A stretch of DNA of 64,000 nt. It comes from Oxobacter pfennigii. GTDB lineage: Bacteria; Bacillota; Clostridia; Clostridiales; Oxobacteraceae. Shown in pieces: positions 28,772-56,755 of this stretch (its first letter is position 1; the number at the start of each line of letters is the position of its first letter). Made by a program: the position numbers and the translations under genes. The DNA lies in NCBI RefSeq assembly GCF_001317355.1, contig NZ_LKET01000039.1, positions 350,574 to 414,573 on the forward strand, written 5' to 3'. The notes beneath the pieces were generated by a model. It did no database searches, was not told the origin of the DNA, and saw only the letters and a program-made list of their open reading frames with translations.

Positions 28772-30050
28772 TCTTGAGATTATAAAGGAGTCCCAAAAAT
28801 ATATGCCGGGAGGAGTTAACAGTCCGGTAAGGGCTTTTAAGGATGTAACTATAAACCCGGCGGTTATTAAAAGGGGACAGGGCGCCTATGTGTTCGATGA
28901 AGAGGGCAATCAATATACCGATTATGTATGTGCCTGGGGACCTATGATTTTGGGCCATTGCGACGAGGATATTGTGGCAGCTATAAAGGATACGAGTGAA
29001 AATGCCATCGCCTTTGGAGCGCCTACATATTTGGAATTAAAGCTAGCCGAGCATATGTGCAGCACCTTGGATGGCGTGGATATGCTAAGGATGGTCAACT
29101 CGGGCACAGAAGCCACCATGAGTGCTATTAAACTGGCAAGAGGCTATACGGGAAGAGACAGGATTATAAAATTTGCAGGGTGCTATCATGGTCATTTTGA
29201 CGGATTTTTGGTCAGTGCAGGCTCAGGGGTTATGACTGAAGGCATTCCGGGAAGCGCAGGAGTTCCTGAGCTAAGTATAAAGAACACTTTGATAGCTTCA
29301 TATAATGATATAGAAAGCGTCAAATTGCTGTTCGAAAATTACAGTGATGAAATTGCGGCTATTATTATTGAGCCGGTAGCCGGGAATATGGGTGTAGTGG
29401 CGGCAGATAAGGAATTTTTATCAGGTGTAAGGGATCTTTGCGATAAATACGGGAGCCTTTTGATATTTGACGAGGTAATGTCGGGATTCAGGGTGGCATA
29501 TAAAGGAGCTATGAGTTTATACGGCATTAAGCCTGATTTAGTCACCTTTGCTAAAATAATGGGCGGCGGTCTTCCCTGCGGTGCATATGGCGGCAGAAGA
29601 GACATAATGGAGAAACTATCCCCTCTTGGGCCGGTGTATCAGGCAGGCACCATGTCAGGAAACCCAATCGTCATGGCGGCAGGATATGCAACTTTGACCA
29701 AGCTATATAACAACCTTGATTATTATAGTCACCTGGAAAGTTTGGGTGCAAGGCTGGAGACGGGCATAAGAGAAGCGGCAGCAGAAATGGGACTTCCTGT
29801 GGTAATCAACCGTGTTGGGGCAATGATGACAATATTTTTTACCGAGCTTAATGAAGTTAAAAATTATGAGGATGCCAAGACCTGTGATACAAAACTTTAT
29901 GCCAAATACTTTGAGCACATGTTCAAAAACGGCATCAACATACCACCCTCCCAATTCGAAGCCTTGTTTATATCAGTAAAACACACTGGAGAGGACATCG
30001 ACTACTTCATCAAAACCTTCAAAAAGCTGGGGGACAGTTCATTCCGTTGA
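28764..30050 (+). CDS. hemL: glutamate-1-semialdehyde 2,1-aminomutase
   Basis: Class-III aminotransferase with the HemL N-terminus. 428 aa. Confidence 0.9.
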
Positions 30051-30162
30051 TTCTTTTTCACAAGTTCATAAGGGGACGGTTCAACCTGTTATATCATATA
30101 GTATAATAATGCCACTTTTGGTTAAACTAACAATACAATAGTAACTAAAGGTGGTGTTTTCT

Positions 30163-31077
30163 ATGCCAAGATGTGCCAGAGAAAAAAGTTTGGACAGCGT
30201 ATATCACGTAATGGTCCGCAGTATTGCCGAAATTAATTTGTTTACAGACCACGCTGACAAAGACGTATATATGAGGCTTTTAAAAAGATATAAGGATATT
30301 TATCTGTTTAAGGTTTATGGCTTTTGTCTCATGGAAACTCACGGACATATAATAATCGACGTACAGGGTGCTGACATATCAAGGATAATGCACGGAGTGA
30401 ATCAAAGCTATGCCTGGTATTACAACCATAGGCACAAACGTCATGGTCACTTGTTTCAGGACAGGTTCAAAAGCAAAATCGTATCAGATGACAGGTACCT
30501 TATAACTTTATCAGCATACATACATAATAATACTCAAGATATTGAAGGTTACGAAAACCAGGTAGAAAAATATGAATACTCAAGCTTAGGAATATATTTA
30601 GGCAGCATGGAAAATAAATATGGCCTGGTGGACAAAGAGTTTATATTAAGCCAGATAAGCTATAATACTGCTATTGCAAAGAAGCAGTACCTTGAATTGG
30701 TATATAGAGATAACCCGGATATAATTCCCGATGATGCAGAGTTTAAAAATGAAAAGGCACAATACAGATCCGAGAGAAAAGTAATCGTAAGAAGCTTCAG
30801 ACCGGATGAAGTGGTGAGCTTTGTTGAAAACTATATAAAGCAGTATAATACAAACATCAGTATAAAGTATACCAAGAAAAATATTGAGGCTAAGGCATTA
30901 TCAGTATTGCTTTTACGAGGGATATGTGATATGAAGCAGAAGGATATATGTGCCTTTATGGGAAACATAACCCAGTCTCACTCGGCAAAGCTGTGTGCCA
31001 GGGGTATAGATTTGTTGCAGCGGAAAAAGGAGTATATGAATATAGCCAAGGATTTCATACGAAGAAAAGCCGGATAA
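30163..31077 (+). CDS. RAYT/IS200-like HUH Y1 transposase-domain protein with a DnaA-C-like HTH C-terminus (probably domesticated)
   Basis: N-terminus MPRCAREKSLDSVYHVMVR, HuH motif METHGHIIID and catalytic Tyr block SAYIHNN. The C-terminal 70 aa resemble DnaA domain IV. AAAGGTGGTG RBS. Confidence 0.7.
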   Translation: MPRCAREKSLDSVYHVMVRSIAEINLFTDHADKDVYMRLLKRYKDIYLFKVYGFCLMETHGHIIIDVQGADISRIMHGVNQSYAWYYNHRHKRHGHLFQDRFKSKIVSDDRYLITLSAYIHNNTQDIEGYENQVEKYEYSSLGIYLGSMENKYGLVDKEFILSQISYNTAIAKKQYLELVYRDNPDIIPDDAEFKNEKAQYRSERKVIVRSFRPDEVVSFVENYIKQYNTNISIKYTKKNIEAKALSVLLLRGICDMKQKDICAFMGNITQSHSAKLCARGIDLLQRKKEYMNIAKDFIRRKAG

Positions 31078-31240
31078 CCTTGAAAGTATAGTATTTTAAG
31101 TATAATTTGGAGAAAAAGTTATTATATCTTTATAATTTTTTTAAAATGGTACAAGCCTTTAAAATTGCTTGTTTTGCAGTAGATTTTATATTTTTAAGTA
31201 CAGAAGCATCAAAAATATCCAGAAAAACCAGAAAAACCAT

Positions 31241-31297
31241 AGGGACGGTTCATGCCAAACTGTTGTTCTAAAACTCAAATTATGATGAACCGTCCCT
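31241..31297. repeat. 13-bp-stem hairpin AGGGACGGTTCAT...ATGAACCGTCCCT between convergent RAYT-like and floT genes (REP-like / bidirectional terminator)
   Basis: Perfect 13-bp inverted repeat. It shares the GGGACGGTTCA motif with 30073-30083 and with the 33571-33745 array. Confidence 0.6.
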
Positions 31298-31306
31298 AAG
31301 CCTTTA

Positions 31307-32695
31307 CTACCCTTCAGTTCCTATGGAATCCTCGGGGATTTCTTTTTTTGTCCCTGTAAGATAGTTTGGAAGCTCCAACCCCGCCATTTTGAAGACATCT
31401 TCATACGGAGGAATGGATTTCAGCATTCCCGACAGAAAATTAGCTGTGGATGGAGTGCCGCTGCCCCCCGACATGGAATCCCATACGGTGATCTTATCAA
31501 TCTTGATGTTCTTGATGGCTTCCACCTGAATTTTTGCAAGCTGTTCCATCTTATCAGCGATCATAAGGGCAACCGCATTCTTTGGATCGTTTCCTGCTGC
31601 CGCCACTATCTTTTCAAAACCCTCTGCCTGTTTGCTCAGTACTTCCATTACTCCTGTTGCTTCTGCCTGCATTTTAAACAAAATGGCGTCGGCTTCACCC
31701 TTTGCCCGGCGGCGGAGGGTTTCGGCCTGGGCTTCGGCATCTATTTCGGCTTTTTGTTTTTCAATTTCGGCGTGGATTATGACGTCTGCCGTCTTTGTGG
31801 CCCTTTCCCTTTCGGCACGGGCCATTTCCGCACTTTGCTCTGCGGAATATGCTTCTTCCAGGGCCTTTGCAGACTGTACCTTCTCAGCTGCAACCGCTCT
31901 CCTGTTGGCTTCAGCTTCCTTTTCCCTTTTTTCTGCCTCGGAATTTGCAATGGTTATCCTGGCCAGGTTTTCACCCTCAACAGCTTTGGAGTTTGCCTCC
32001 GATACCTGTATTCTCTGGTCCATTTGGGCATTTGCCTCACCTATGGAACCGTCGCGGTCTTTTTCAGCAACGCTCTTTTTGGCATCGTTAATAGCCTTGG
32101 ATGCGGCTTCTTTACCCAGGGCTTCAATATAACCGGATTCATCCTTTATGTCTGTAACGTTAACGTTTATAAGCTTTAAACCAATCTTTTTAAGTTCAGC
32201 CTCCACGTTTTTGGATACATTGGCTAAAAATTTATCTCTGTCTGAATTTATTTCCTCAATATCCATGGTGGCAATTACAAGCCTTAGCTGGCCAAATATA
32301 ATATCCTTTGCCAGTTCCTGTATATCCTTAAGCTGCAGCCCCAAGATTCTTTCCGCCGCATTTGGCATAACCTCGGGTTCCGTGGAAATACCTACGGTAA
32401 ATCTGGAAGGTACATCCACCCTTATGTTCTGTTTGCTCAATGCCTTGGTCAAATTTACTTCGATCGAAATCGGAGTCAAATCTAAAAATTCATAATTCTG
32501 TATAACAGGCCATACAAAGGCAGCTCCTCCATGGATGCATTTTGCAGACCTTGCCGTGCCGTCTCCGCTTCTTCCTATCTTACCATAAACAACGAGTACC
32601 TTATCGGACGGACATCTTTTAAATCTTAAAAACAGCATAATAACGGTTGATAGTATTGCCACTGCTATGACAGTGTATAAAATTATCTCATACAT
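31307..32695 (-). CDS. floT: flotillin-like SPFH/band-7 protein
   Basis: N-terminal TM, SPFH domain and a long Ala/Glu-rich flotillin repeat region. 462 aa. Confidence 0.85.
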   Translation of the reverse strand: MYEIILYTVIAVAILSTVIMLFLRFKRCPSDKVLVVYGKIGRSGDGTARSAKCIHGGAAFVWPVIQNYEFLDLTPISIEVNLTKALSKQNIRVDVPSRFTVGISTEPEVMPNAAERILGLQLKDIQELAKDIIFGQLRLVIATMDIEEINSDRDKFLANVSKNVEAELKKIGLKLINVNVTDIKDESGYIEALGKEAASKAINDAKKSVAEKDRDGSIGEANAQMDQRIQVSEANSKAVEGENLARITIANSEAEKREKEAEANRRAVAAEKVQSAKALEEAYSAEQSAEMARAERERATKTADVIIHAEIEKQKAEIDAEAQAETLRRRAKGEADAILFKMQAEATGVMEVLSKQAEGFEKIVAAAGNDPKNAVALMIADKMEQLAKIQVEAIKNIKIDKITVWDSMSGGSGTPSTANFLSGMLKSIPPYEDVFKMAGLELPNYLTGTKKEIPEDSIGTEG

Positions 32696-32713
32696 AAACT
32701 GACCCCCTTTTAA

Positions 32714-33349
32714 TTAATCGATATGATCTTCAACCAAATTTTCAACCAATAAAATTTGATTGTCGATTACGCCTATAACCTTAACTCTTTCTCCAGTAGG
32801 AATAGTTTTCCCATTGGTCATTGCATCTAATTCCCGGGATGTACCCTGCACTATCACCGTAACCTTTCCCACGCCATCCTTTGCCCCTGGAATGGTGAGA
32901 TACACTTCTCCCTTTGCATTTATTGCATTTTTAAGGTCCATTCCGCCGTATTCCGTCAAATTGGCGATGAAATAAAACAGGCTGCTTATAATCAGGCTGA
33001 CTATAAAACCTGCGCCACAGGAAAGCAGGACTTCAAGTATTTTATTCATATTAAATTTGTCAAGTACAATGCCGGTCCATGAAAATACGGTAAAGAAAAC
33101 AATGAAATTTCGCATGGTGAGAAGTCTAAAGGGAGAAGAGACATCATCGAAGGTATAGTCCTGGAAGCCGTCTGAATCCAGATATTCATGGATATCTCCC
33201 AAATTCTCATTTGAATCGCCAAAATCTCCGTGGTCACCAAGTCCTAAAAATGGCAGGAGGGTTTGAATTATAAAGAGAGTAGTAAAAGGAATCCCTATAT
33301 ACCAATATACTCTTTGATCACCCGGTATACTATTCCACCATTCAACCAT
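32714..33349 (-). CDS. nfeD: NfeD-like membrane protein (flotillin partner, YuaF-like)
   Basis: Membrane N-terminus plus C-terminal OB-fold (GERVKVIGVIDNQILLVE). Lies upstream of and coupled to floT. Confidence 0.75.
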   Translation of the reverse strand: MVEWWNSIPGDQRVYWYIGIPFTTLFIIQTLLPFLGLGDHGDFGDSNENLGDIHEYLDSDGFQDYTFDDVSSPFRLLTMRNFIVFFTVFSWTGIVLDKFNMNKILEVLLSCGAGFIVSLIISSLFYFIANLTEYGGMDLKNAINAKGEVYLTIPGAKDGVGKVTVIVQGTSRELDAMTNGKTIPTGERVKVIGVIDNQILLVENLVEDHID

Positions 33350-33570
33350 AATATCCCCCCTTAAAAGAAGCAGCTAATTTATTATGCTAAGAAAGCGAAC
33401 ATATTTATTATGATAGAAGGTATTAAAGAAAATGATCTTAAATATGGTTTTGTGCAGGCCCCTATTTAATTATAATCATAAAAGGTGAGTCCAGTCCACA
33501 AAATCAGCACAATTTAAAAGCAGATTTGCCCACGTCTACTTGATATAAATATTTTAAAGAGAAAGTAGGA

Positions 33571-33745
33571 TGAGCCGTCCCGTATTTTGTCAAAGAAAAA
33601 ATAGAATGAACCGTCCCTGTTGTTATGAACCGTATTTTGTCAAAGAAAAAATAGAATGAACCGTCCCTGTTGTTATGAACCGTCCCTGTTGTTACTGCTG
33701 TTGTTAAAAGAAAAAGTGGAGTGAACCGTCCCCTATTGTTATAAT
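33571..33745. repeat. tandem direct repeats (about 50-bp unit x 2.5, then a degenerate copy) containing 5 copies of the (A/G)TGAACCGTCCC / ATGAACCGT motif
   Basis: Unit GAACCGTATTTTGTCAAAGAAAAAATAGAATGAACCGTCCCTGTTGTTAT repeated. It lies in the divergent intergenic region of nfeD-floT and the NUDIX gene. Confidence 0.7.
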
Positions 33746-33766
33746 AGTGTAGAAGGGGGGAAGGGA

Positions 33767-34429
33767 ATGGACAAAAAAGGGCTGGATGATATGATAAAGA
33801 ATCTTACTGAAATTCCGGGCATACTGGATAAAGAGCTGTACCATAATTCCGTTGTATTGATACCTTTGGTTTTTATAGGTGGGGAATATCATCTATTATT
33901 TCAGATGAGAAATTTTAATATAAGACAGGGCGGCGAGGTGTCCTTTCCGGGGGGAATGTACGACCCGACAGAGGATGAAAGCCTTGAAGCAACAGCTATA
34001 CGCGAAACCTATGAGGAGATGGGCATTCCCAAGGATAAGATAAAGATAATTGGACGCCTTGATACAATGGTTGCTCCTATGGGCATTACCATTGATTCTT
34101 TTGTGAGTCTAGTGGACATAGGGGGCACTGATGAATTAATAATCAACAAAAATGAGGTGGAGTACGCATTTACCGTTCCTGTATCCCATTTTGAAAACAG
34201 CCAGCCGGAGAAATATAATACCCGCGTTATGATAGAATCTTCCTACATGGATGAGGAAGGCAGAAAAGTGACTCTTCTTCCGGCAGAAGAATTAGGCCTG
34301 CCGGAGCTTTACTACAAGTCCTGGGGCAGAAGAAATTACGAAATCCTCATATATAGATACAAAAATGAAATGATATGGGGAATGACCGCAAGGCTTGTAT
34401 ATGAAGTTGTAAAAAAGCTGAAGCGATAG
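33767..34429 (+). CDS. NUDIX hydrolase
   Basis: Nudix box GGMYDPTEDESLEATAIRETYEEMGI. Confidence 0.75.
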   Translation: MDKKGLDDMIKNLTEIPGILDKELYHNSVVLIPLVFIGGEYHLLFQMRNFNIRQGGEVSFPGGMYDPTEDESLEATAIRETYEEMGIPKDKIKIIGRLDTMVAPMGITIDSFVSLVDIGGTDELIINKNEVEYAFTVPVSHFENSQPEKYNTRVMIESSYMDEEGRKVTLLPAEELGLPELYYKSWGRRNYEILIYRYKNEMIWGMTARLVYEVVKKLKR

Positions 34430-34477
34430 TCTAGCAAAGGGAAAAAATATATGCTATAATAATATTCGAACTGAATA

Positions 34478-34690
34478 GCCAATGAATCTTCAGGGCAGGG
34501 TGAGCAATTGAATACTTACGTATTATTTTGCATTTCCCGACCGGCGGTACAGCCCGCGAGCTTTTAATTAAGCAGATCCGGTTTAATTCCGGAGCCGACA
34601 GTAAAGTCTGGATGAAAGAAGGTTGTGTTTACCTTGTATTTTTCTCCTGAAGTTCTTCAGGAGCTTTTTATTTTTCAGGATTTTTTTCTT
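34478..34690 (+). promoter_or_regulatory. FMN riboswitch (RFN element) with intrinsic terminator
   Basis: CTTCAGGGCAGGGTGA...TTCCCGACCGGCGGTA...AGCCCGCGAGC...CCGGAGCCGACAGTAAAGTCTGGATG conserved blocks. Terminator CTCCTGAAGTTCTTCAGGAG plus a U-tract. Confidence 0.8.
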
Positions 34691-34744
34691 ATGACCCACC
34701 GAAGATTAGGGCTAGACAGTAATATTTATTCTGGAGGGTTTATT

Positions 34745-35332
34745 ATGAGAGATCAAAGACTTAATAAGCTGGTAAAAATTTCTGTTTTATCGGCAGCAGC
34801 ATTTATACTTATGCTGATTGAATTTCCGCTTCCCTTTTTCCCCGAATTTTTAAAGGTGGATATAAGCGATTTTCCCGCACTTTTAGGAAGCTTCGCCTTA
34901 GGGCCTTTAGCCGGCGTTATAATCGAAGCAGTAAAGAACATACTTCATGTTCTTCTTAAGAATACTACTGCAGGCATAGGTGAAATTGCAAACTTCGTCG
35001 TAGGTGCTGCCTTTGTATTTGCCGCAGGCATGGTGTATAAGATTAAAAAGGACAGAGCTCACGCATTATACGGACTGATAGCAGGTGTTGTTGCTATGGC
35101 GGCGGTAGCTGCCGTGTGCAATTTGTTTATATTCCTGCCCTTATACGAAAAAGTCTTAGGCTTTCCCATTCCGGCAATAGTTGACGCCGGTGCCAAAATC
35201 AATCCTGCAATAAAAGATTTAAACACCTTTGTCGCATTGAGTATAGTGCCCTTTAATATCTTAAAAGGCATCATAGTTGCACTTCTCGGATTTTTATCAT
35301 ACAAGAGCTTATCCCCCATCCTTCATAGGTAA
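34745..35332 (+). CDS. ribU: ECF-type riboflavin transporter S component
   Basis: RibU/FmnP-like membrane protein. GGAGGG RBS precedes the ATG at 34745; the upstream ORF extension is not supported. Confidence 0.7.
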   Translation: MRDQRLNKLVKISVLSAAAFILMLIEFPLPFFPEFLKVDISDFPALLGSFALGPLAGVIIEAVKNILHVLLKNTTAGIGEIANFVVGAAFVFAAGMVYKIKKDRAHALYGLIAGVVAMAAVAAVCNLFIFLPLYEKVLGFPIPAIVDAGAKINPAIKDLNTFVALSIVPFNILKGIIVALLGFLSYKSLSPILHR

Positions 35333-35587
35333 AGCAAGCCGTCGGCCAAACCGACGGTTATTTCTTGCCCATTTTTACCACTACATATATAATTAGAATG
35401 GAAATTTGGATAAAATATAAGCTGTGGACACTCCTCGGATTAGAAACTAGTATTGCTGATAAGAGCGTAACCTGCACGAGGAGTGTTCTCTAACAGCTTA
35501 CAATTTCATCTGGCATATGCAGATATCTGATTACAAGGAAGCGGCAAGCTTTTTGTAATCAAATACCTTCGAAAGGGTAGTGATAAT

Positions 35588-36061
35588 ATGTTGTTTGAAT
35601 CATATAGCCCCAATGATACCGAAAAAGTTGGGGAATACTTGGGCTCTATAGCCAATAAAGGCTATGTAATCTGCCTGACAGGCGATTTAGGCGCTGGAAA
35701 AACTAAATTCGTCAAAGGCCTTGCAAAGGGGCTTAATATAGATGATTATATAACAAGCCCCACCTTTACTATCGTAAACGAATATAATGGAAGGCTTCCC
35801 TTGTATCATTTCGATGTATACAGAATAAACGACACCGACGAAATGCATGAAATAGGTTTCGATGAATACATATATGGCCAAGGCGTCAGCGTTATAGAAT
35901 GGGCTAATATAATAGAAGAAATTTTGCCAAAGGAAAACATATGGGTAGACATATCAAAAGATATGGAAGTAGGCGAAGACTATCGAAAAATCCAAATCAA
36001 AGTCAACGGCGAGAAATACCAGGGACTTATATGGGAGATGATTGAAAAATGCGAGTTCTAG
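35588..36061 (+). CDS. tsaE: tRNA threonylcarbamoyladenosine biosynthesis ATPase TsaE
   Basis: P-loop GDLGAGKT with the YjeE-family pattern. Confidence 0.85.
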   Translation: MLFESYSPNDTEKVGEYLGSIANKGYVICLTGDLGAGKTKFVKGLAKGLNIDDYITSPTFTIVNEYNGRLPLYHFDVYRINDTDEMHEIGFDEYIYGQGVSVIEWANIIEEILPKENIWVDISKDMEVGEDYRKIQIKVNGEKYQGLIWEMIEKCEF

Positions 36062-54116: not shown

Positions 54117-55139
54117 ATGGAGAGGAAAGATTATGTTGTATTGGGGATAGAGTCAAGCTGCGACGAGACCTCGGCGGCAGTTGTTAAGGGCGGCAGAGAG
54201 CTCCTTTCAAATATAATATCGACACAGATAGAGCTGCATAAAAAGTTCGGAGGAGTAGTGCCGGAGGTAGCGTCAAGGAAACATGTGGAGCTTATAAATG
54301 TGGTTATACAGGAAGCCTTGGATAAAGCGGGAGTGACCCTTAATGATGTGGATATTATAGGAGCGACTTACGGGCCTGGACTGGTAGGAGCCCTTTTGGT
54401 AGGGCTTTCGACGGCAAAGGCACTAAGCTTTGCTGCAAAGAAAAAATTTGTAGGCGTAAACCACATAGAGGGCCATATATGTGCTAATTTTCTGGCACAT
54501 AAAGAGCTGGAGCCTCCTTTTGTGTGTCTGGTGGTGTCAGGAGGCCATACCAATATAGTTTACATCGAAGATTACGGAAAATTTGAAATAATGGGAAGAA
54601 CCAGAGATGACGCTGCAGGAGAAGCCTATGATAAAATTGCCAGGGCATTGGGACTGGGCTATCCGGGAGGTCCGGTAATTGATAAACTGGCGCTTCAGGG
54701 CAACAAGGATGCCGTTAACTTCCCCAGAATAAACCTTGATAAAAGCCTTGATTTCAGCTTCAGCGGATTAAAGACCTCTGTTTTAAATTATATAAATAAG
54801 CTTAATATGGTAGGCACAAAGATAATAGTTGAGGATGTTGCCGCAGCCTTTCAAGAGGCGGTGGTGGACGTTCTTGTGGATAAGACAATAAATGCCGCCA
54901 TTTTGAAAAAAAGCAAAATAATTGGAATTGCCGGCGGAGTTGCGTCAAATTCAAGACTGAGAGAAAAATTCATGGAGAAGGCTAAGATACACGATATACA
55001 AATATTTTTTCCACCTCCCATATTGTGCACCGATAATGCAGCTATGATCGCTTCGGCAGCATATTACGAATATGTAAACGGAAGGGAATCGGATATGAGT
55101 CTTAACGCAAACCCTTCATTAAGGCTGGGTCAGCGGTAA
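54117..55139 (+). CDS. tsaD: tRNA N6-adenosine threonylcarbamoyltransferase
   Basis: Kae1/TsaD N-terminus ([16 protein letters not shown]) and metal-binding H..H. Confidence 0.9.
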
Positions 55140-55237: not shown

Positions 55238-55319
55238 TGTGGATAGTGTGAAAATAGTCATAAAATTAGAAAGTTCTAGTGTGGATATCTGTGGATAACT
55301 GTGTGGATAATGTGGATGG
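55238..55319 (-). promoter_or_regulatory. cluster of five DnaA boxes (TTATCCACA on the minus strand)
   Basis: TGTGGATAG at 55238, TGTGGATAT at 55280, TGTGGATAA at 55290, TGTGGATAA at 55302 and TGTGGATGG at 55311, all in one orientation within 82 bp. Confidence 0.6.
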
Positions 55320-55417: not shown

Positions 55418-56755
55418 ATGAAAACCGCACCTTATGATTATATACTTAAAACCATTGATAATACTAATATCTTGCCTGTAACCTCCAAATGCATCACCGG
55501 GTGTATATTCTGCAGTCATAAGAATAATCCTGCGGATATTGTTACATTTTGTATGCCAAATTTGTCGTCAAACCAAATTAAGGATTTATGTGAGTTTTTA
55601 GATAAGAATAAAAGGATCGTAATAGGTGAATCAGCCAGCAGAATAATAGAGGGAGAACCTTTCTTAAGGGAGGATTTATTAGATATACTTTACTATATAA
55701 GAAATAAATTCAAAAACACCCCCATAGTAATAACTACAAGCGGTAACCAGCTGACAAAAGAAAAAATAAGAAAATTAAAGGAATTTGAGCCTATAGAAAT
55801 CAATTTATCTTTAAACAGCTCAACAAAAATCGGCAGAGAACTTCTTTTTAAAGGAAAGCACCATGAAAATGCTGTCATAGCACCAAAGCATTTAAGTGAT
55901 GCAGGTGTAGCTTTTAACGGCAGCCTGGTAGCAATGCCTGACATAGCGGGCTATGAGGATATAGAAGAGACTGTTTCCTTTTTAAGCGAAAGCGGAGCAC
56001 AGACTGTAAGGGTATATGTTCCCGGCTTTTCAAAGTTTAGTGAGTATGATGCGGATTTCTTTGAAATAAGAGAACGCTTAAATATTATAGCAGACAGGGT
56101 CCATGAAAAGTACAGGGTACCTATACTTGTGGAACCCCCGGAAATAAATAATCTTACTCCTGCCATAGCCGGTGTTATTAGAAATTCCCCTGCCCAAATC
56201 TGTGGCATGGAAAAAGGGGACATAGTATTAAAAGTAAATGACTATAAGCCTCAGTCCAGAGTGGATGCCTATAACCGCATATATAAAGATCAAAATCCCA
56301 AAGTAACCATAAAAAGAAAAAATTGTGAATTTAAAGCTACAATAATAAAGGAAGGTGACGCATCGGCAGGCGCAGTATTTTATTACGACCTTCACCCCGA
56401 TACCATAAGAAGCATTGATAAATCCATAAAAAGATGCAATGCTAAAAAACCCGTTATTATAACGTCCCGCCTGGCCTATAAGGCTATTGAATCAGGCATA
56501 AAGAATATGTCCATGTTCGGTGACGGTCATATTAATATTTTGGCTGTGGATAATAAGTACTTCGGCGGCACTATAATGTGCGCAGGGCTTCTAACGGTGG
56601 ATGACATAATTGATAAACTATCAGCTTCCAAAGAAGAGTATGATTTAATAATTCTCCCGGCCGCTCCATTTGATTTGAGTGGCTATGACCTTACAGGCCA
56701 TAACTTTGAAGAAATACAGGATAAGCTAAATATTAGAGCAATAATAGCCGAATAG
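55418..56755 (+). CDS. radical SAM protein with internal PDZ domain (DUF512-type)
   Basis: CITGCIFC (CX3CX2C) at residues 25-32 and a PDZ-like GMEKGDIVLKVNDY segment. 445 aa. Confidence 0.7.
   Translation: MKTAPYDYILKTIDNTNILPVTSKCITGCIFCSHKNNPADIVTFCMPNLSSNQIKDLCEFLDKNKRIVIGESASRIIEGEPFLREDLLDILYYIRNKFKNTPIVITTSGNQLTKEKIRKLKEFEPIEINLSLNSSTKIGRELLFKGKHHENAVIAPKHLSDAGVAFNGSLVAMPDIAGYEDIEETVSFLSESGAQTVRVYVPGFSKFSEYDADFFEIRERLNIIADRVHEKYRVPILVEPPEINNLTPAIAGVIRNSPAQICGMEKGDIVLKVNDYKPQSRVDAYNRIYKDQNPKVTIKRKNCEFKATIIKEGDASAGAVFYYDLHPDTIRSIDKSIKRCNAKKPVIITSRLAYKAIESGIKNMSMFGDGHINILAVDNKYFGGTIMCAGLLTVDDIIDKLSASKEEYDLIILPAAPFDLSGYDLTGHNFEEIQDKLNIRAIIAE

What the first reader, a model, noticed from the sequence alone, without database searches (positions are those of the whole stretch)
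33571..33745. Tandem 50-bp repeats carrying phased ATGAACCGT direct repeats in the divergent nfeD-floT / NUDIX control region
The unit is GAACCGTATTTTGTCAAAGAAAAAATAGAATGAACCGTCCCTGTTGTTAT, repeated about 2.5 times and followed by GTGAACCGTCCCCTATTGTTATAAT.

ATGAACCGT half-sites recur at 11-bp and about 39-bp spacings, which is helical phasing typical of response-regulator or repressor arrays. The last copy overlaps a TATAAT that could serve the NUDIX gene. On the other strand the array sits upstream of the nfeD-floT operon.

The array shares its core with the hairpin at 31241-31297, so the flotillin operon is bracketed by the same motif. It is not a CRISPR array, as it has no unique spacers.
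Basis: seen in the sequence. Interest (0 to 1): 0.65.

Follow-up and report, generated by a model that had tools for sequence, protein, structure and literature searches.

The report
Stacked end-repeats of a transposon insertion
The tandem array is a stack of copies of the 11-12 bp end sequence of a neighbouring transposon-like gene, sitting at the right edge of a 3.7 kb piece of DNA inserted between two genes that are adjacent in relatives; there is no sign that it is a dedicated regulatory array for the flotillin operon.

Summary
The repeats are real: a perfect 50-bp duplication and a perfect 19-bp duplication carry five full copies and one truncated copy of TGAACCGTCCC. The stated 11/39-bp phasing is wrong; spacings are 36, 19, 31, 19 and 46 bp.

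All nine copies in the 64 kb window (Oxobacter pfennigii) lie within 30030-33733, around a 304-aa gene (30163-31077). Its predicted fold is a RAYT-like HUH/Y1 nuclease plus a DnaA-domain-IV-like helix-turn-helix. This is the TIRYT/"TIRtron" kind (TnpA-Y1 subclass 2.1).

In most of the 83 homologous loci inspected, the same core flanks the gene as inverted repeats. Paralogous copies stop being similar exactly at it, so it is the element terminus. Same-orientation clusters recur in other species.

Relatives have hemL directly followed by the NUDIX gene, with no core. Window 30030-33733 is therefore a lineage-specific insertion (Y1 gene plus nfeD-floT). It is bounded by inverted core copies, and the right one is the last unit of the array.

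The array is best read as reiterated right-end repeats, recently expanded by slippage and presumably bound by the Y1 protein. Its last copy abuts an extended -10 that probably now drives NUDIX. It is a new member of a known kind, of modest interest.

The parts
30030..30041 (+). Outermost left copy of the terminal repeat, GGGGACAGTTCA (core with 1 mismatch). It is the left edge of the lineage-specific insertion and encodes the extra HemL C-terminal residues GDSS of the GDSSFR extension.
   Evidence: HemL of two relatives ends 6 aa earlier, and colinearity with L088/L090 stops at about 30026. The sequence fits the published TIRYT motif GGGGWSAS exactly.
30072..30083 (+). Left terminal inverted repeat (GGGGACGGTTCA) of the minimal Y1 element, 80 bp upstream of the gene start. 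A weak -35 (TTCAAC, 30080-30085) overlaps it, followed after 16 nt by TATAAT (30102-30107).
   Evidence: The same position (55-130 bp upstream) and orientation are seen in 56 of 80 homologous loci. The promoter was read by eye and was not listed by the scan.
30163..31077 (+). Gene for a 304-aa Y1/HUH nuclease with a C-terminal DnaA-domain-IV-like helix-turn-helix (TIRYT; TnpA-Y1 subclass 2.1).
   Evidence: Pfam Y1_Tnp, E = 1.8e-13. HUH histidines H60/H62 and Y119 are invariant in 29 homologues. 13 of 29 homologues hit Bac_DnaA_C. AF2 model pLDDT 81.8. Foldseek: 4er8_A TnpA-REP, E = 3.9e-5, TM 0.73; 1j1v_A DnaA domain IV, TM 0.79.
31240..31298 (.). Inverted pair of cores: an internal copy at 31242-31252 and the right terminal repeat at 31286-31296. 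It forms a 14-bp-stem hairpin with a 29-nt loop. It lies 10 bp after the floT stop and is followed on the minus strand by T-runs, so it is a possible terminator for floT.
   Evidence: pair I2; z = -4.9 and -6.0. The distance of the right repeat from the Y1 stop (+209) is in the family range.
31307..33349 (-). nfeD-like gene (32714-33349) and flotillin/SPFH gene (31307-32695), lying inside the inserted segment.
   Evidence: Pfam Band_7. Absent from all 80 genome loci L001-L080 when tested by tblastn. In a relative it lies on another contig with its own terminator and no cores.
33571..33581 (+). Array copy 1 (TGAGCCGTCCC, 1 mismatch).
33607..33617 (+). Array copy 2 (TGAACCGTCCC).
33625..33633 (+). 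Truncated copy (ATGAACCGT). It marks the junction of the 50-bp duplication, at a CCGT microhomology.
33657..33667 (+). Array copy 3, identical to copy 2 (50-bp duplication).
33676..33686 (+). Array copy 4 (19-bp duplication of ATGAACCGTCCCTGTTGTT).
   Evidence: family D3.
33722..33733 (+). Array copy 5 (TGAACCGTCCCC), the right edge of the 3.7 kb insertion and inverted relative to 30030-30041.
   Evidence: Colinearity with relatives resumes at the NUDIX gene.
33737..33745 (+). Extended -10 element TGTTATAAT, 6 nt beyond the last copy and 21 nt before the NUDIX ATG. It is the probable junction promoter for NUDIX.
   Evidence: Sequence. No acceptable -35, so it is not listed by the scan. Inference only.
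33767..34429 (+). NUDIX (CoA-pyrophosphatase-like) gene. In relatives it follows hemL directly.

Best explanation
The array is a stack of five full copies and one truncated copy, all in the same orientation, of the 11-12 bp terminal repeat (core GGGAC[G/A]GTTCA) of a TIRYT-type element. That element is the adjacent gene for a RAYT-like HUH/Y1 nuclease fused to a DnaA-domain-IV-like DNA-binding domain. The copies have the polarity of the element's right end.

The array lies at the right edge of a 3.7 kb segment (30030-33733) holding the Y1 gene and nfeD-floT. That segment is inserted between hemL and the NUDIX gene, which are adjacent in relatives.

Shown here:
- The core is the terminus of the mobile unit in other genomes.
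- It flanks homologous genes as inverted repeats across Firmicutes.
- Same-orientation clusters recur in other species.
- The two edges of the O. pfennigii-specific segment coincide with inverted core copies.
- Two perfect internal duplications (50 bp and 19 bp) are recent.

Inferred:
- The Y1 protein binds each core, probably in duplex DNA through its helix-turn-helix. In this clade the copies are not hairpins.
- The copies can serve as alternative or reiterated ends.
- The perfect repeats arose by slipped-strand or unequal exchange at a CCGT microhomology.
- NUDIX, cut off from the hem operon, is now transcribed from the extended -10 just outside the last copy. Protein bound to that copy would then incidentally repress it.

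It remains open whether the 3.7 kb moved as one composite unit (I lean to this, about 0.45) or was assembled in place around a minimal 1.2 kb element (about 0.35).
For: - Motif statistics and clustering around the Y1 gene.
- Protein identity: Pfam, conserved HUH and Tyr, AF2 model and Foldseek hits to TnpA-REP (4er8) and DnaA domain IV (1j1v).
- Among the 80 genome loci the core lies 55-130 bp upstream of the gene in 56 and inverted 16-300 bp downstream in 45, down to 30% protein identity.
- C. lundense paralogues are 86% identical over 1271 bp that begins and ends exactly at the cores.
- Fervidicella multi-copy elements are likewise delimited by a variant core.
- Distal copies number 190 against 18.8 expected, and 134 of 187 are intergenic.
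- Same-orientation clusters of 3-5 copies occur in L015, L047, L049, L053, L055, L062, L071 and L084.
- Local copies keep the polarity of the nearer end out to about 3 kb.
- L084, from the nearest clade, shows three upstream copies, the Y1 gene, a neighbouring gene, then four inverted copies, the same layout as here.
- Relatives have hemL followed directly by NUDIX with no cores. Colinearity breaks at about 30026 and resumes at about 33800.
- The array has no single-strand structure, z = -0.5.
- The kind is described in the literature: TIRtrons/TIRYT with single, dimeric or grouped TIR repeats (PMC3733652) and subclass 2.1 with a Bac_DnaA_C-like C-terminus (PMC6006769).
Against: - No binding or cleavage data exist for any member of this subclass.
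- Only 64 kb of the O. pfennigii genome could be read, so the genome-wide copy number and other arrays are unknown.
- Only one genome of the species was available, so copy-number variation and an empty site in a conspecific strain could not be checked.
- The relatives used for the empty-site argument are 59-74% identical at protein level, so the insertion edges are defined only to within about 20 bp on the right.
- The Pfam Bac_DnaA_C model does not reach threshold on the O. pfennigii protein itself.
- The NUDIX promoter is read by eye and has no good -35.
Confidence: 0.78

Rival explanations
1. One reading: a dedicated operator array. A response regulator or repressor binds phased direct repeats and controls the divergent nfeD-floT and NUDIX promoters.
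For: The array lies between a predicted nfeD promoter (33498..33469) and the NUDIX start. The last copy sits between the -35 and -10 positions of a possible NUDIX promoter. Cores are better conserved than the spacers between the outer and inner units.
Against: - Spacings of 36, 19, 31, 19 and 46 bp are not phased.
- The motif is the terminus of a mobile element in many genera.
- Relatives with the same genes lack the array, and even lack the intergenic region.
- A relative's nfeD-floT has no cores, though only 99 bp upstream of nfeD was available there.
- Family-wide, distal copies are depleted in divergent (5'-5') spacers: 15 observed against about 30 expected.
- No regulator gene is adjacent other than the Y1 gene.
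Confidence: 0.07
2. An inert relic. A single solo end was left near the element and amplified purely by replication slippage. The Y1 protein no longer acts on it, and its position at the insertion edge has no mechanistic meaning.
For: Two of the duplications are perfect and have a microhomology junction. There is no secondary structure. Within the 64 kb window there are no copies outside the 3.7 kb segment, so the family looks quiescent here.
Against: - The outer units (33544-33593 and 33695-33744) are only 64% identical to the 50-bp unit yet keep the core at 10/11 and 11/11. The array therefore predates the recent duplications, and the cores are better kept than the spacers.
- Clusters with unrelated spacers at about 20 bp pitch occur in other species.
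- Copy polarity follows the nearer end.
- The catalytic residues of the Y1 protein are intact.
Confidence: 0.12
3. A REP/BIME-type or other structured element, such as a transcription terminator, an RNA element or CRISPR.
For: It is extragenic, repeated and associated with a RAYT-like gene. The related pair at 31240-31298 does form a hairpin.
Against: - Array units are not palindromic, and the array fold has z = -0.5.
- All copies have one orientation.
- There are no Rfam matches in 29000-36000 except the FMN riboswitch.
- The intervening sequences are themselves repeated, so they are not unique spacers, and no cas gene was seen among the ORFs of 29.5-36.5 kb.
Confidence: 0.03

Closest known systems
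TIRtrons / TIRYT (TIR-associated tyrosine transposases; Di Nocera, De Gregorio and Rocco 2013, PMC3733652)
   Same: A RAYT-like Y1 gene is flanked by short terminal inverted repeats instead of REP hairpins. The repeats share a G-rich motif: GGGGACAG at 30030 fits GGGGWSAS, and GGGGACGG fits 7 of 8 positions. The paper reports extra TIR copies as singles, dimers or grouped clusters.
   Different: - The text of that paper does not mention Firmicutes.
- Here the conserved core is longer (10-11 nt, GGGAC[G/A]GTTC) and is kept across several orders of Firmicutes.
- The array is strictly one-orientation and sits at the edge of a larger insertion that also carries a host-type operon.
TnpA-Y1 subclass 2.1 (2.1.2) of Quentin, Siguier, Chandler and Fichant 2018 (PMC6006769)
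   Same: Long Y1 proteins with a C-terminal Bac_DnaA_C-like or helix-turn-helix extension. The paper says they probably correspond to the TIRYTs.
   Different: That study reports finding no REP-like sequences near subclass 2.1 genes. Here, distal copies are about 10-fold enriched, clusters occur, and in the more distant members the core is the loop of a hairpin with covarying stems.
REP/BIME elements and RAYT (E. coli TnpA-REP, PDB 4ER8); REPINs
   Same: Best structural match of the N-terminal domain. Both are extragenic short repeats cognate to a single-copy Y1 gene that they flank. Clusters and inverted doublets occur in both.
   Different: Units here are not palindromes and carry no GTAG tag. 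The copies in the array have one orientation rather than alternating. The protein carries an extra duplex-DNA-binding-type domain.
Transposon ends with several transposase-binding sites in direct order (Tn7 TnsB sites, Mu L1-L3/R1-R3); resemblance from general knowledge only
   Same: Several same-orientation copies of the end motif are stacked at an element's end, with opposite polarity at the two ends (window; L084, L055, L078).
   Different: Those are DDE transposons with defined site numbers. Nothing is known of the biochemistry here, and part of this array consists of very recent perfect duplications.
IS200/IS605 (IS608, ISDra2 TnpA)
   Same: The HUH/Y1 fold. No target duplication is evident at the Fervidicella copies.
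   Different: IS200/IS605 have subterminal hairpins and no terminal inverted repeats. Their TnpA is about 130-150 aa without a helix-turn-helix domain.

Membership tests
TIRtron / TIRYT | Gene encodes a RAYT-like Y1 transposase with the HUH motif and catalytic tyrosine | tested here: met
   Pfam Y1_Tnp E = 1.8e-13. H60, H62 and Y119 invariant. Foldseek best hit 4er8_A.
TIRtron / TIRYT | Gene flanked by terminal inverted repeats rather than REP hairpins | tested here: met
   30072-30083 against 31286-31296/7, 12 bp. Flanks do not pair around single copies. The same arrangement is seen in most homologous loci.
TIRtron / TIRYT | TIRs carry the motif GGGGWSAS | tested here: met
   GGGGACAG at 30030-30037 fits exactly. 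GGGGACGG at 30072 and the reverse complement of 33726-33733 fit 7 of 8 positions. The A variant (GGGACAGTTC) is common in relatives.
TIRtron / TIRYT | The repeats delimit the mobile unit | tested here: met
   Shown in other genomes, not in O. pfennigii itself. C. lundense paralogues align exactly from core to core, as do Fervidicella copies. In the window, the edges of the lineage-specific segment coincide with cores.
TIRtron / TIRYT | Further TIR copies dispersed in the same genome (single, dimeric, grouped) | tested here: inconclusive
   A grouped cluster and a dimer are present locally, but there are no copies in the other 60 kb of the window.
TnpA-Y1 subclass 2.1.2 | C-terminal Bac_DnaA_C-like helix-turn-helix domain | tested here: met
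   13 of 29 homologues hit PF08299 (best E = 5.8e-7). The model's C-terminus matches DnaA domain IV, 1j1v_A (TM 0.79, rmsd 2.5 A over 94 columns) and 3pvp. The O. pfennigii protein alone is below the Pfam threshold.
REP / BIME | Units are 20-40 bp imperfect palindromes with a GTAG (or CGTC) tag, usually in alternating orientation | tested here: not met
   No stem around array copies. Array fold z = -0.5. All copies have one orientation.
Response-regulator / repressor operator array | Direct-repeat half-sites at a fixed, helically phased spacing, conserved upstream of the regulated genes in relatives | tested here: not met
   Spacings are 36, 19, 31, 19 and 46 bp. No periodicity family-wide. 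The array is absent upstream of NUDIX in relatives.
CRISPR array | Repeats of 24-48 bp separated by unique spacers, usually with cas genes | tested here: not met
   The core is 11 bp, the spacers are themselves repeated, and no cas gene was seen among the ORFs of 29.5-36.5 kb.
DnaA-box cluster | Several TTATCCACA boxes | tested here: not met
   No box with at most 1 mismatch lies between 27526 and 35405. A real cluster lies elsewhere, at 55238-55310.

The most novel reading that the evidence does not exclude
TIRYT-type Y1 elements of Firmicutes recognise a 10-11 nt core that has stayed almost unchanged across orders, presumably through their DnaA-domain-IV-like domain. They build stacks of this core at their ends and can use outer copies as alternative ends. 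In that way they move neighbouring host operons as cargo: here nfeD-floT, in L084 a DinB-like gene. The displaced downstream gene then acquires a junction promoter next to a site the element's protein may bind. This would be a first case of gene capture, and possibly incidental gene control, by this uncharacterised and very widespread transposase subclass.
Probability: 0.3. Interest if true: 0.6.

Novelty: new member of a known kind. Interest (0 to 1): 0.35.

Why it matters
On its own the array is an ordinary by-product of a mobile element, and it should not be annotated as a regulatory region of the flotillin operon.

The case has two wider uses.

First, it gives a clean natural example, with an empty site in relatives, of a TIRYT/subclass 2.1 element. 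The 2018 survey (PMC6006769) ranks subclass 2.1 as the second-largest Y1 subclass, and the papers I found report no binding or cleavage data for it. The exact ends are defined, the core motif is strongly conserved and testable, and there is a candidate cargo operon.

Second, it shows how such an insertion rewires transcription. NUDIX is separated from the hem operon, HemL gains six residues encoded by the end repeat, and floT ends at a hairpin made of two inverted cores instead of its own terminator.

Tried and rejected
- Exact-protein look-ups of the window's NfeD, NUDIX and Y1 proteins and of the O. pfennigii paralogue P0003 found nothing. No second copy of this genome region, no other strain and no paralogue locus could therefore be read.
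- The PDB sequence search with the family profile found nothing at E <= 1. The fold search was needed instead.
- A literature search for the core sequence itself returned only unrelated primer matches. Later RAYT/HUH literature added nothing on this subclass.
- Synteny of homologous Y1 loci with hemL, floT, nfeD, NUDIX, ribU, tsaE or tsaB: none in 80 loci. This rejects the idea that the Y1 gene is a fixed neighbour or regulator of flotillin genes.
- Helical phasing of same-orientation copies: not significant.
- A hairpin around single copies is absent in the window and in the close clade. It is present only in distant members.
- The 24-nt spacer block GTATTTTGTCAAAGAAAAAATAGA occurs nowhere else in the window.
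- The perfect TTGACA inside each 50-bp unit on the minus strand has no -10 at the proper distance, so I did not read it as a promoter.
- FloT similarity (75-88% across Clostridia) is too uniform to say whether nfeD-floT was acquired horizontally.
- GC content of the insert (0.397) does not differ from its surroundings (0.40-0.41).
- I did not run the metagenome DNA scan, because the genome loci already answered the question.

Full report
OBSERVATION

The region 33571-33745 reads: ATGAGCCGTCCC, a 24-nt block X, ATGAACCGTCCC, TGTTGTT, the truncated ATGAACC, X again, ATGAACCGTCCC, TGTTGTT, ATGAACCGTCCC, TGTTGTT, a 28-nt spacer, then TGAACCGTCCCC followed by TATTGTTATAAT.

Tandem Repeats Finder reports a 50-bp period (33580-33683, 2.1 copies, 100% match) and a nested 19-bp period (33656-33694, 2.1 copies, 100% match). 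Two outer units are 64% identical to the 50-bp unit but keep the core. The junction of the 50-bp duplication falls at a CCGT microhomology and leaves a truncated copy at 33625-33633.

The 11-mer TGAACCGTCCC (at most 1 mismatch) occurs 9 times in the window against 0.46 expected. All nine lie between 30031 and 33732.

The real start-to-start distances are 36, 19, 31, 19 and 46 bp.

The array has no single-strand structure, z = -0.5. Rfam finds only an FMN riboswitch further downstream.

WHAT THE MOTIF BELONGS TO

The window is from Oxobacter pfennigii (100% protein matches). The other four motif copies surround a 304-aa gene at 30163-31077:
- two copies upstream in one orientation (30030-30041 degenerate, 30072-30083);
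- an inverted pair downstream (31242-31252 and 31286-31296) that folds into a 14-bp stem, z = -4.9 and -6.0.

The protein has a Y1_Tnp domain. The HUH histidines and the catalytic tyrosine are invariant in 29 homologues, and 13 of those 29 also match Bac_DnaA_C.

An AlphaFold model (pLDDT 81.8) matches E. coli TnpA-REP/RAYT best in its N-terminal half (4er8_A, E = 3.9e-5, TM 0.73). Its C-terminal part matches DnaA domain IV (1j1v_A, TM 0.79, rmsd 2.5 A).

This is the architecture that Quentin et al. 2018 call TnpA-Y1 subclass 2.1 and equate with the TIRYT/"TIRtron" elements of Di Nocera et al. 2013. Those are Y1 genes flanked by terminal inverted repeats sharing GGGGWSAS, with extra repeat copies found singly, as dimers or grouped. 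GGGGACAG at 30030 fits that motif exactly, and GGGGACGG fits 7 of 8 positions.

COMPARATIVE EVIDENCE

I fetched 80 genome loci encoding homologues at 30-59% identity, from Clostridiaceae to Peptococcaceae, Sporomusa, Syntrophomonas and Paenisporosarcina. I added three loci of the nearest clade.

- Position and orientation. GGGACGGTTC (at most 1 mismatch) lies 55-130 bp upstream of the gene in 56 of the 80 loci and, inverted, 16-300 bp downstream in 45.
- Mobile-unit boundaries. In C. lundense two paralogous copies are 86% identical over 1271 bp. That stretch begins exactly at the upstream core and ends exactly at the downstream one. In Fervidicella metallireducens at least six copies stop being similar exactly at a variant core, GGGACATATAAG...ATATGTCCC. 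The core is therefore the terminus of a mobile unit.
- No conserved neighbours. None of the 80 loci has hemL, floT, nfeD, NUDIX, ribU, tsaE or tsaB nearby. A relative that is syntenic with window 54-60 kb carries its Y1 gene next to tsaD instead.
- Dispersed copies. More than 600 bp from the gene, the core is 10-fold enriched (190 against 18.8 expected in 981 kb). It is mostly intergenic (134 of 187 copies against 15% of the sequence), with no preference for divergent promoter spacers (15 observed against about 30 expected).
- Clusters. Same-orientation clusters of 3-5 copies with 19-60 bp spacing occur in L015, L047, L049, L053, L055, L062, L071 and L084. No helical periodicity is detectable.
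- Polarity. Copies near a gene keep the polarity of the nearer end out to about 3 kb. Upstream the ratio is 55:12 and 16:3; downstream it is 40:5 and 17:10; beyond 3 kb downstream it is balanced at 20:22.
- Closest parallel. L084, from the clade closest to O. pfennigii, has three upstream copies at 20-bp pitch, the Y1 gene, a DinB_2 gene, then four inverted copies. This is the layout seen in the window.

THE INSERTION

The closest NUDIX homologues (59-61% identity) lie on contigs where the whole hem operon is colinear with window 23.6-30.0 kb (HemL 73-74% identical). In these contigs hemL is followed by NUDIX after 15 bp (L088, L089), or after one unrelated 309-aa gene (L090, L091). No core copy is present.

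Colinearity with the window stops at about 30026 and resumes at about 33800. O. pfennigii HemL carries six extra C-terminal residues (GDSSFR), whose first four codons lie in the degenerate core copy at 30030-30041.

Window 30030-33733 (3704 bp) is therefore a lineage-specific insertion. Its two edges are inverted copies of the terminal repeat: GGGGACAGTTCA on the left and TGAACCGTCCCC on the right. The right one is the last unit of the array.

A contig from the same sample as L090 carries nfeD-floT (75% nucleotide identity over 1.8 kb). It has an ordinary intrinsic terminator and no cores. In the window, floT ends 10 bp before the hairpin made of two inverted cores.

MECHANISM

Shown:
- The array consists of copies of the element terminus, in right-end polarity, at the right edge of the insertion.
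- Part of the array is old (diverged spacers, conserved cores) and part is very recent (perfect 50-bp and 19-bp duplications).

Inferred:
- The Y1 protein binds each core. Because single copies in this clade are not hairpins and the protein carries a DnaA-IV-like domain, binding to duplex DNA through the helix-turn-helix is the likeliest mode. The HUH domain would then act on nearby single-stranded DNA.
- The stacked copies are reiterated or alternative ends.
- The perfect duplications arose by slippage or unequal exchange.
- NUDIX lost its hem-operon transcription and now probably uses the extended -10, TGTTATAAT (33737-33745), which starts 4 nt after the last copy (its TATAAT hexamer is 6 nt beyond it). 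Occupancy of that copy would overlap the RNA polymerase site.

I cannot decide whether the 3.7 kb moved as one composite unit using the outer copies, or whether a minimal 1.2 kb element (30072-31296) came first and the rest accreted. The precedent in L084 and the coincidence of both edges with cores make me lean to the former.

RIVALS

A host operator array is not supported, for three reasons: the spacings are not phased, the array is absent in relatives, and the motif is a transposon end. A purely inert slippage product is possible for the recent duplications. It does not explain the conserved cores in diverged units, the recurrent clusters elsewhere, or the polarity rule. REP/BIME, CRISPR, RNA-element and DnaA-box readings each fail a defining test; see the membership table.

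VERDICT

Its meaning is different from the one proposed: it is a grouped terminal-repeat cluster of a TIRYT-type element at the edge of an insertion. It is a new member of a known but biochemically unstudied kind, of modest interest. The interest would rise if cargo capture or incidental control of NUDIX were demonstrated.

Noticed in passing
window 55238-55310: Cluster of five DnaA boxes (TTATCCACA with at most 1 mismatch, all on the minus strand, about 10-12 bp apart). It lies between tsaD (54117-55139) and a radical-SAM/PDZ/DUF512 gene (55418-56755). No dnaA gene is adjacent.
   Followed up: partly
window 30027-30050: HemL carries a 6-residue C-terminal extension (GDSSFR) that two relatives lack. 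Its first four codons (GDSS) lie in the outermost left copy of the transposon end repeat, so the insertion replaced the original stop codon.
   Followed up: yes
L055-L080 (for example L060 about 9925, L076, L078): In distant family members the core GGGACGGTTC is the loop of a hairpin. The stems differ between species but stay complementary: 55-81% paired in one register against 17-56% in shifted registers, over 95 copies. A -35-like TTGACT/TTGAAT directly abuts the core, with a -10-like hexamer about 17 nt further. The 2018 survey reported no REP-like sequences for this subclass.
   Followed up: partly
L002, L003, L004, L011, L012, L043, L046 (Fervidicella metallireducens): At least six copies of the Y1 gene, several at contig ends, with variant termini GGGACATATAAG...ATATGTCCC. 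This looks like an actively transposing, IS-like member of the family.
   Followed up: partly
L084 9785-12126: Three upstream cores at 20-bp pitch, the Y1 gene, a DinB_2-family gene, then four inverted cores. This is a possible second case of a passenger gene enclosed by stacked ends.
   Followed up: partly
window 31219-31306: floT has no ordinary terminator. Ten bp after its stop comes the 14-bp hairpin built from two inverted end repeats, followed on the minus strand by two T-runs (the CCAGAAAAA x2.3 repeat). A relative's floT has a canonical intrinsic terminator instead.
   Followed up: partly
window 34482-34627: FMN riboswitch (106 bits) in front of an ECF-transporter S component (RibU-like, 34625-35332), just downstream of the NUDIX gene.
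   Followed up: no
window 33582-33655, minus strand: Each 50-bp unit contains a perfect TTGACA on the strand facing nfeD, but no -10 at the right distance. It is probably coincidental.
   Followed up: partly
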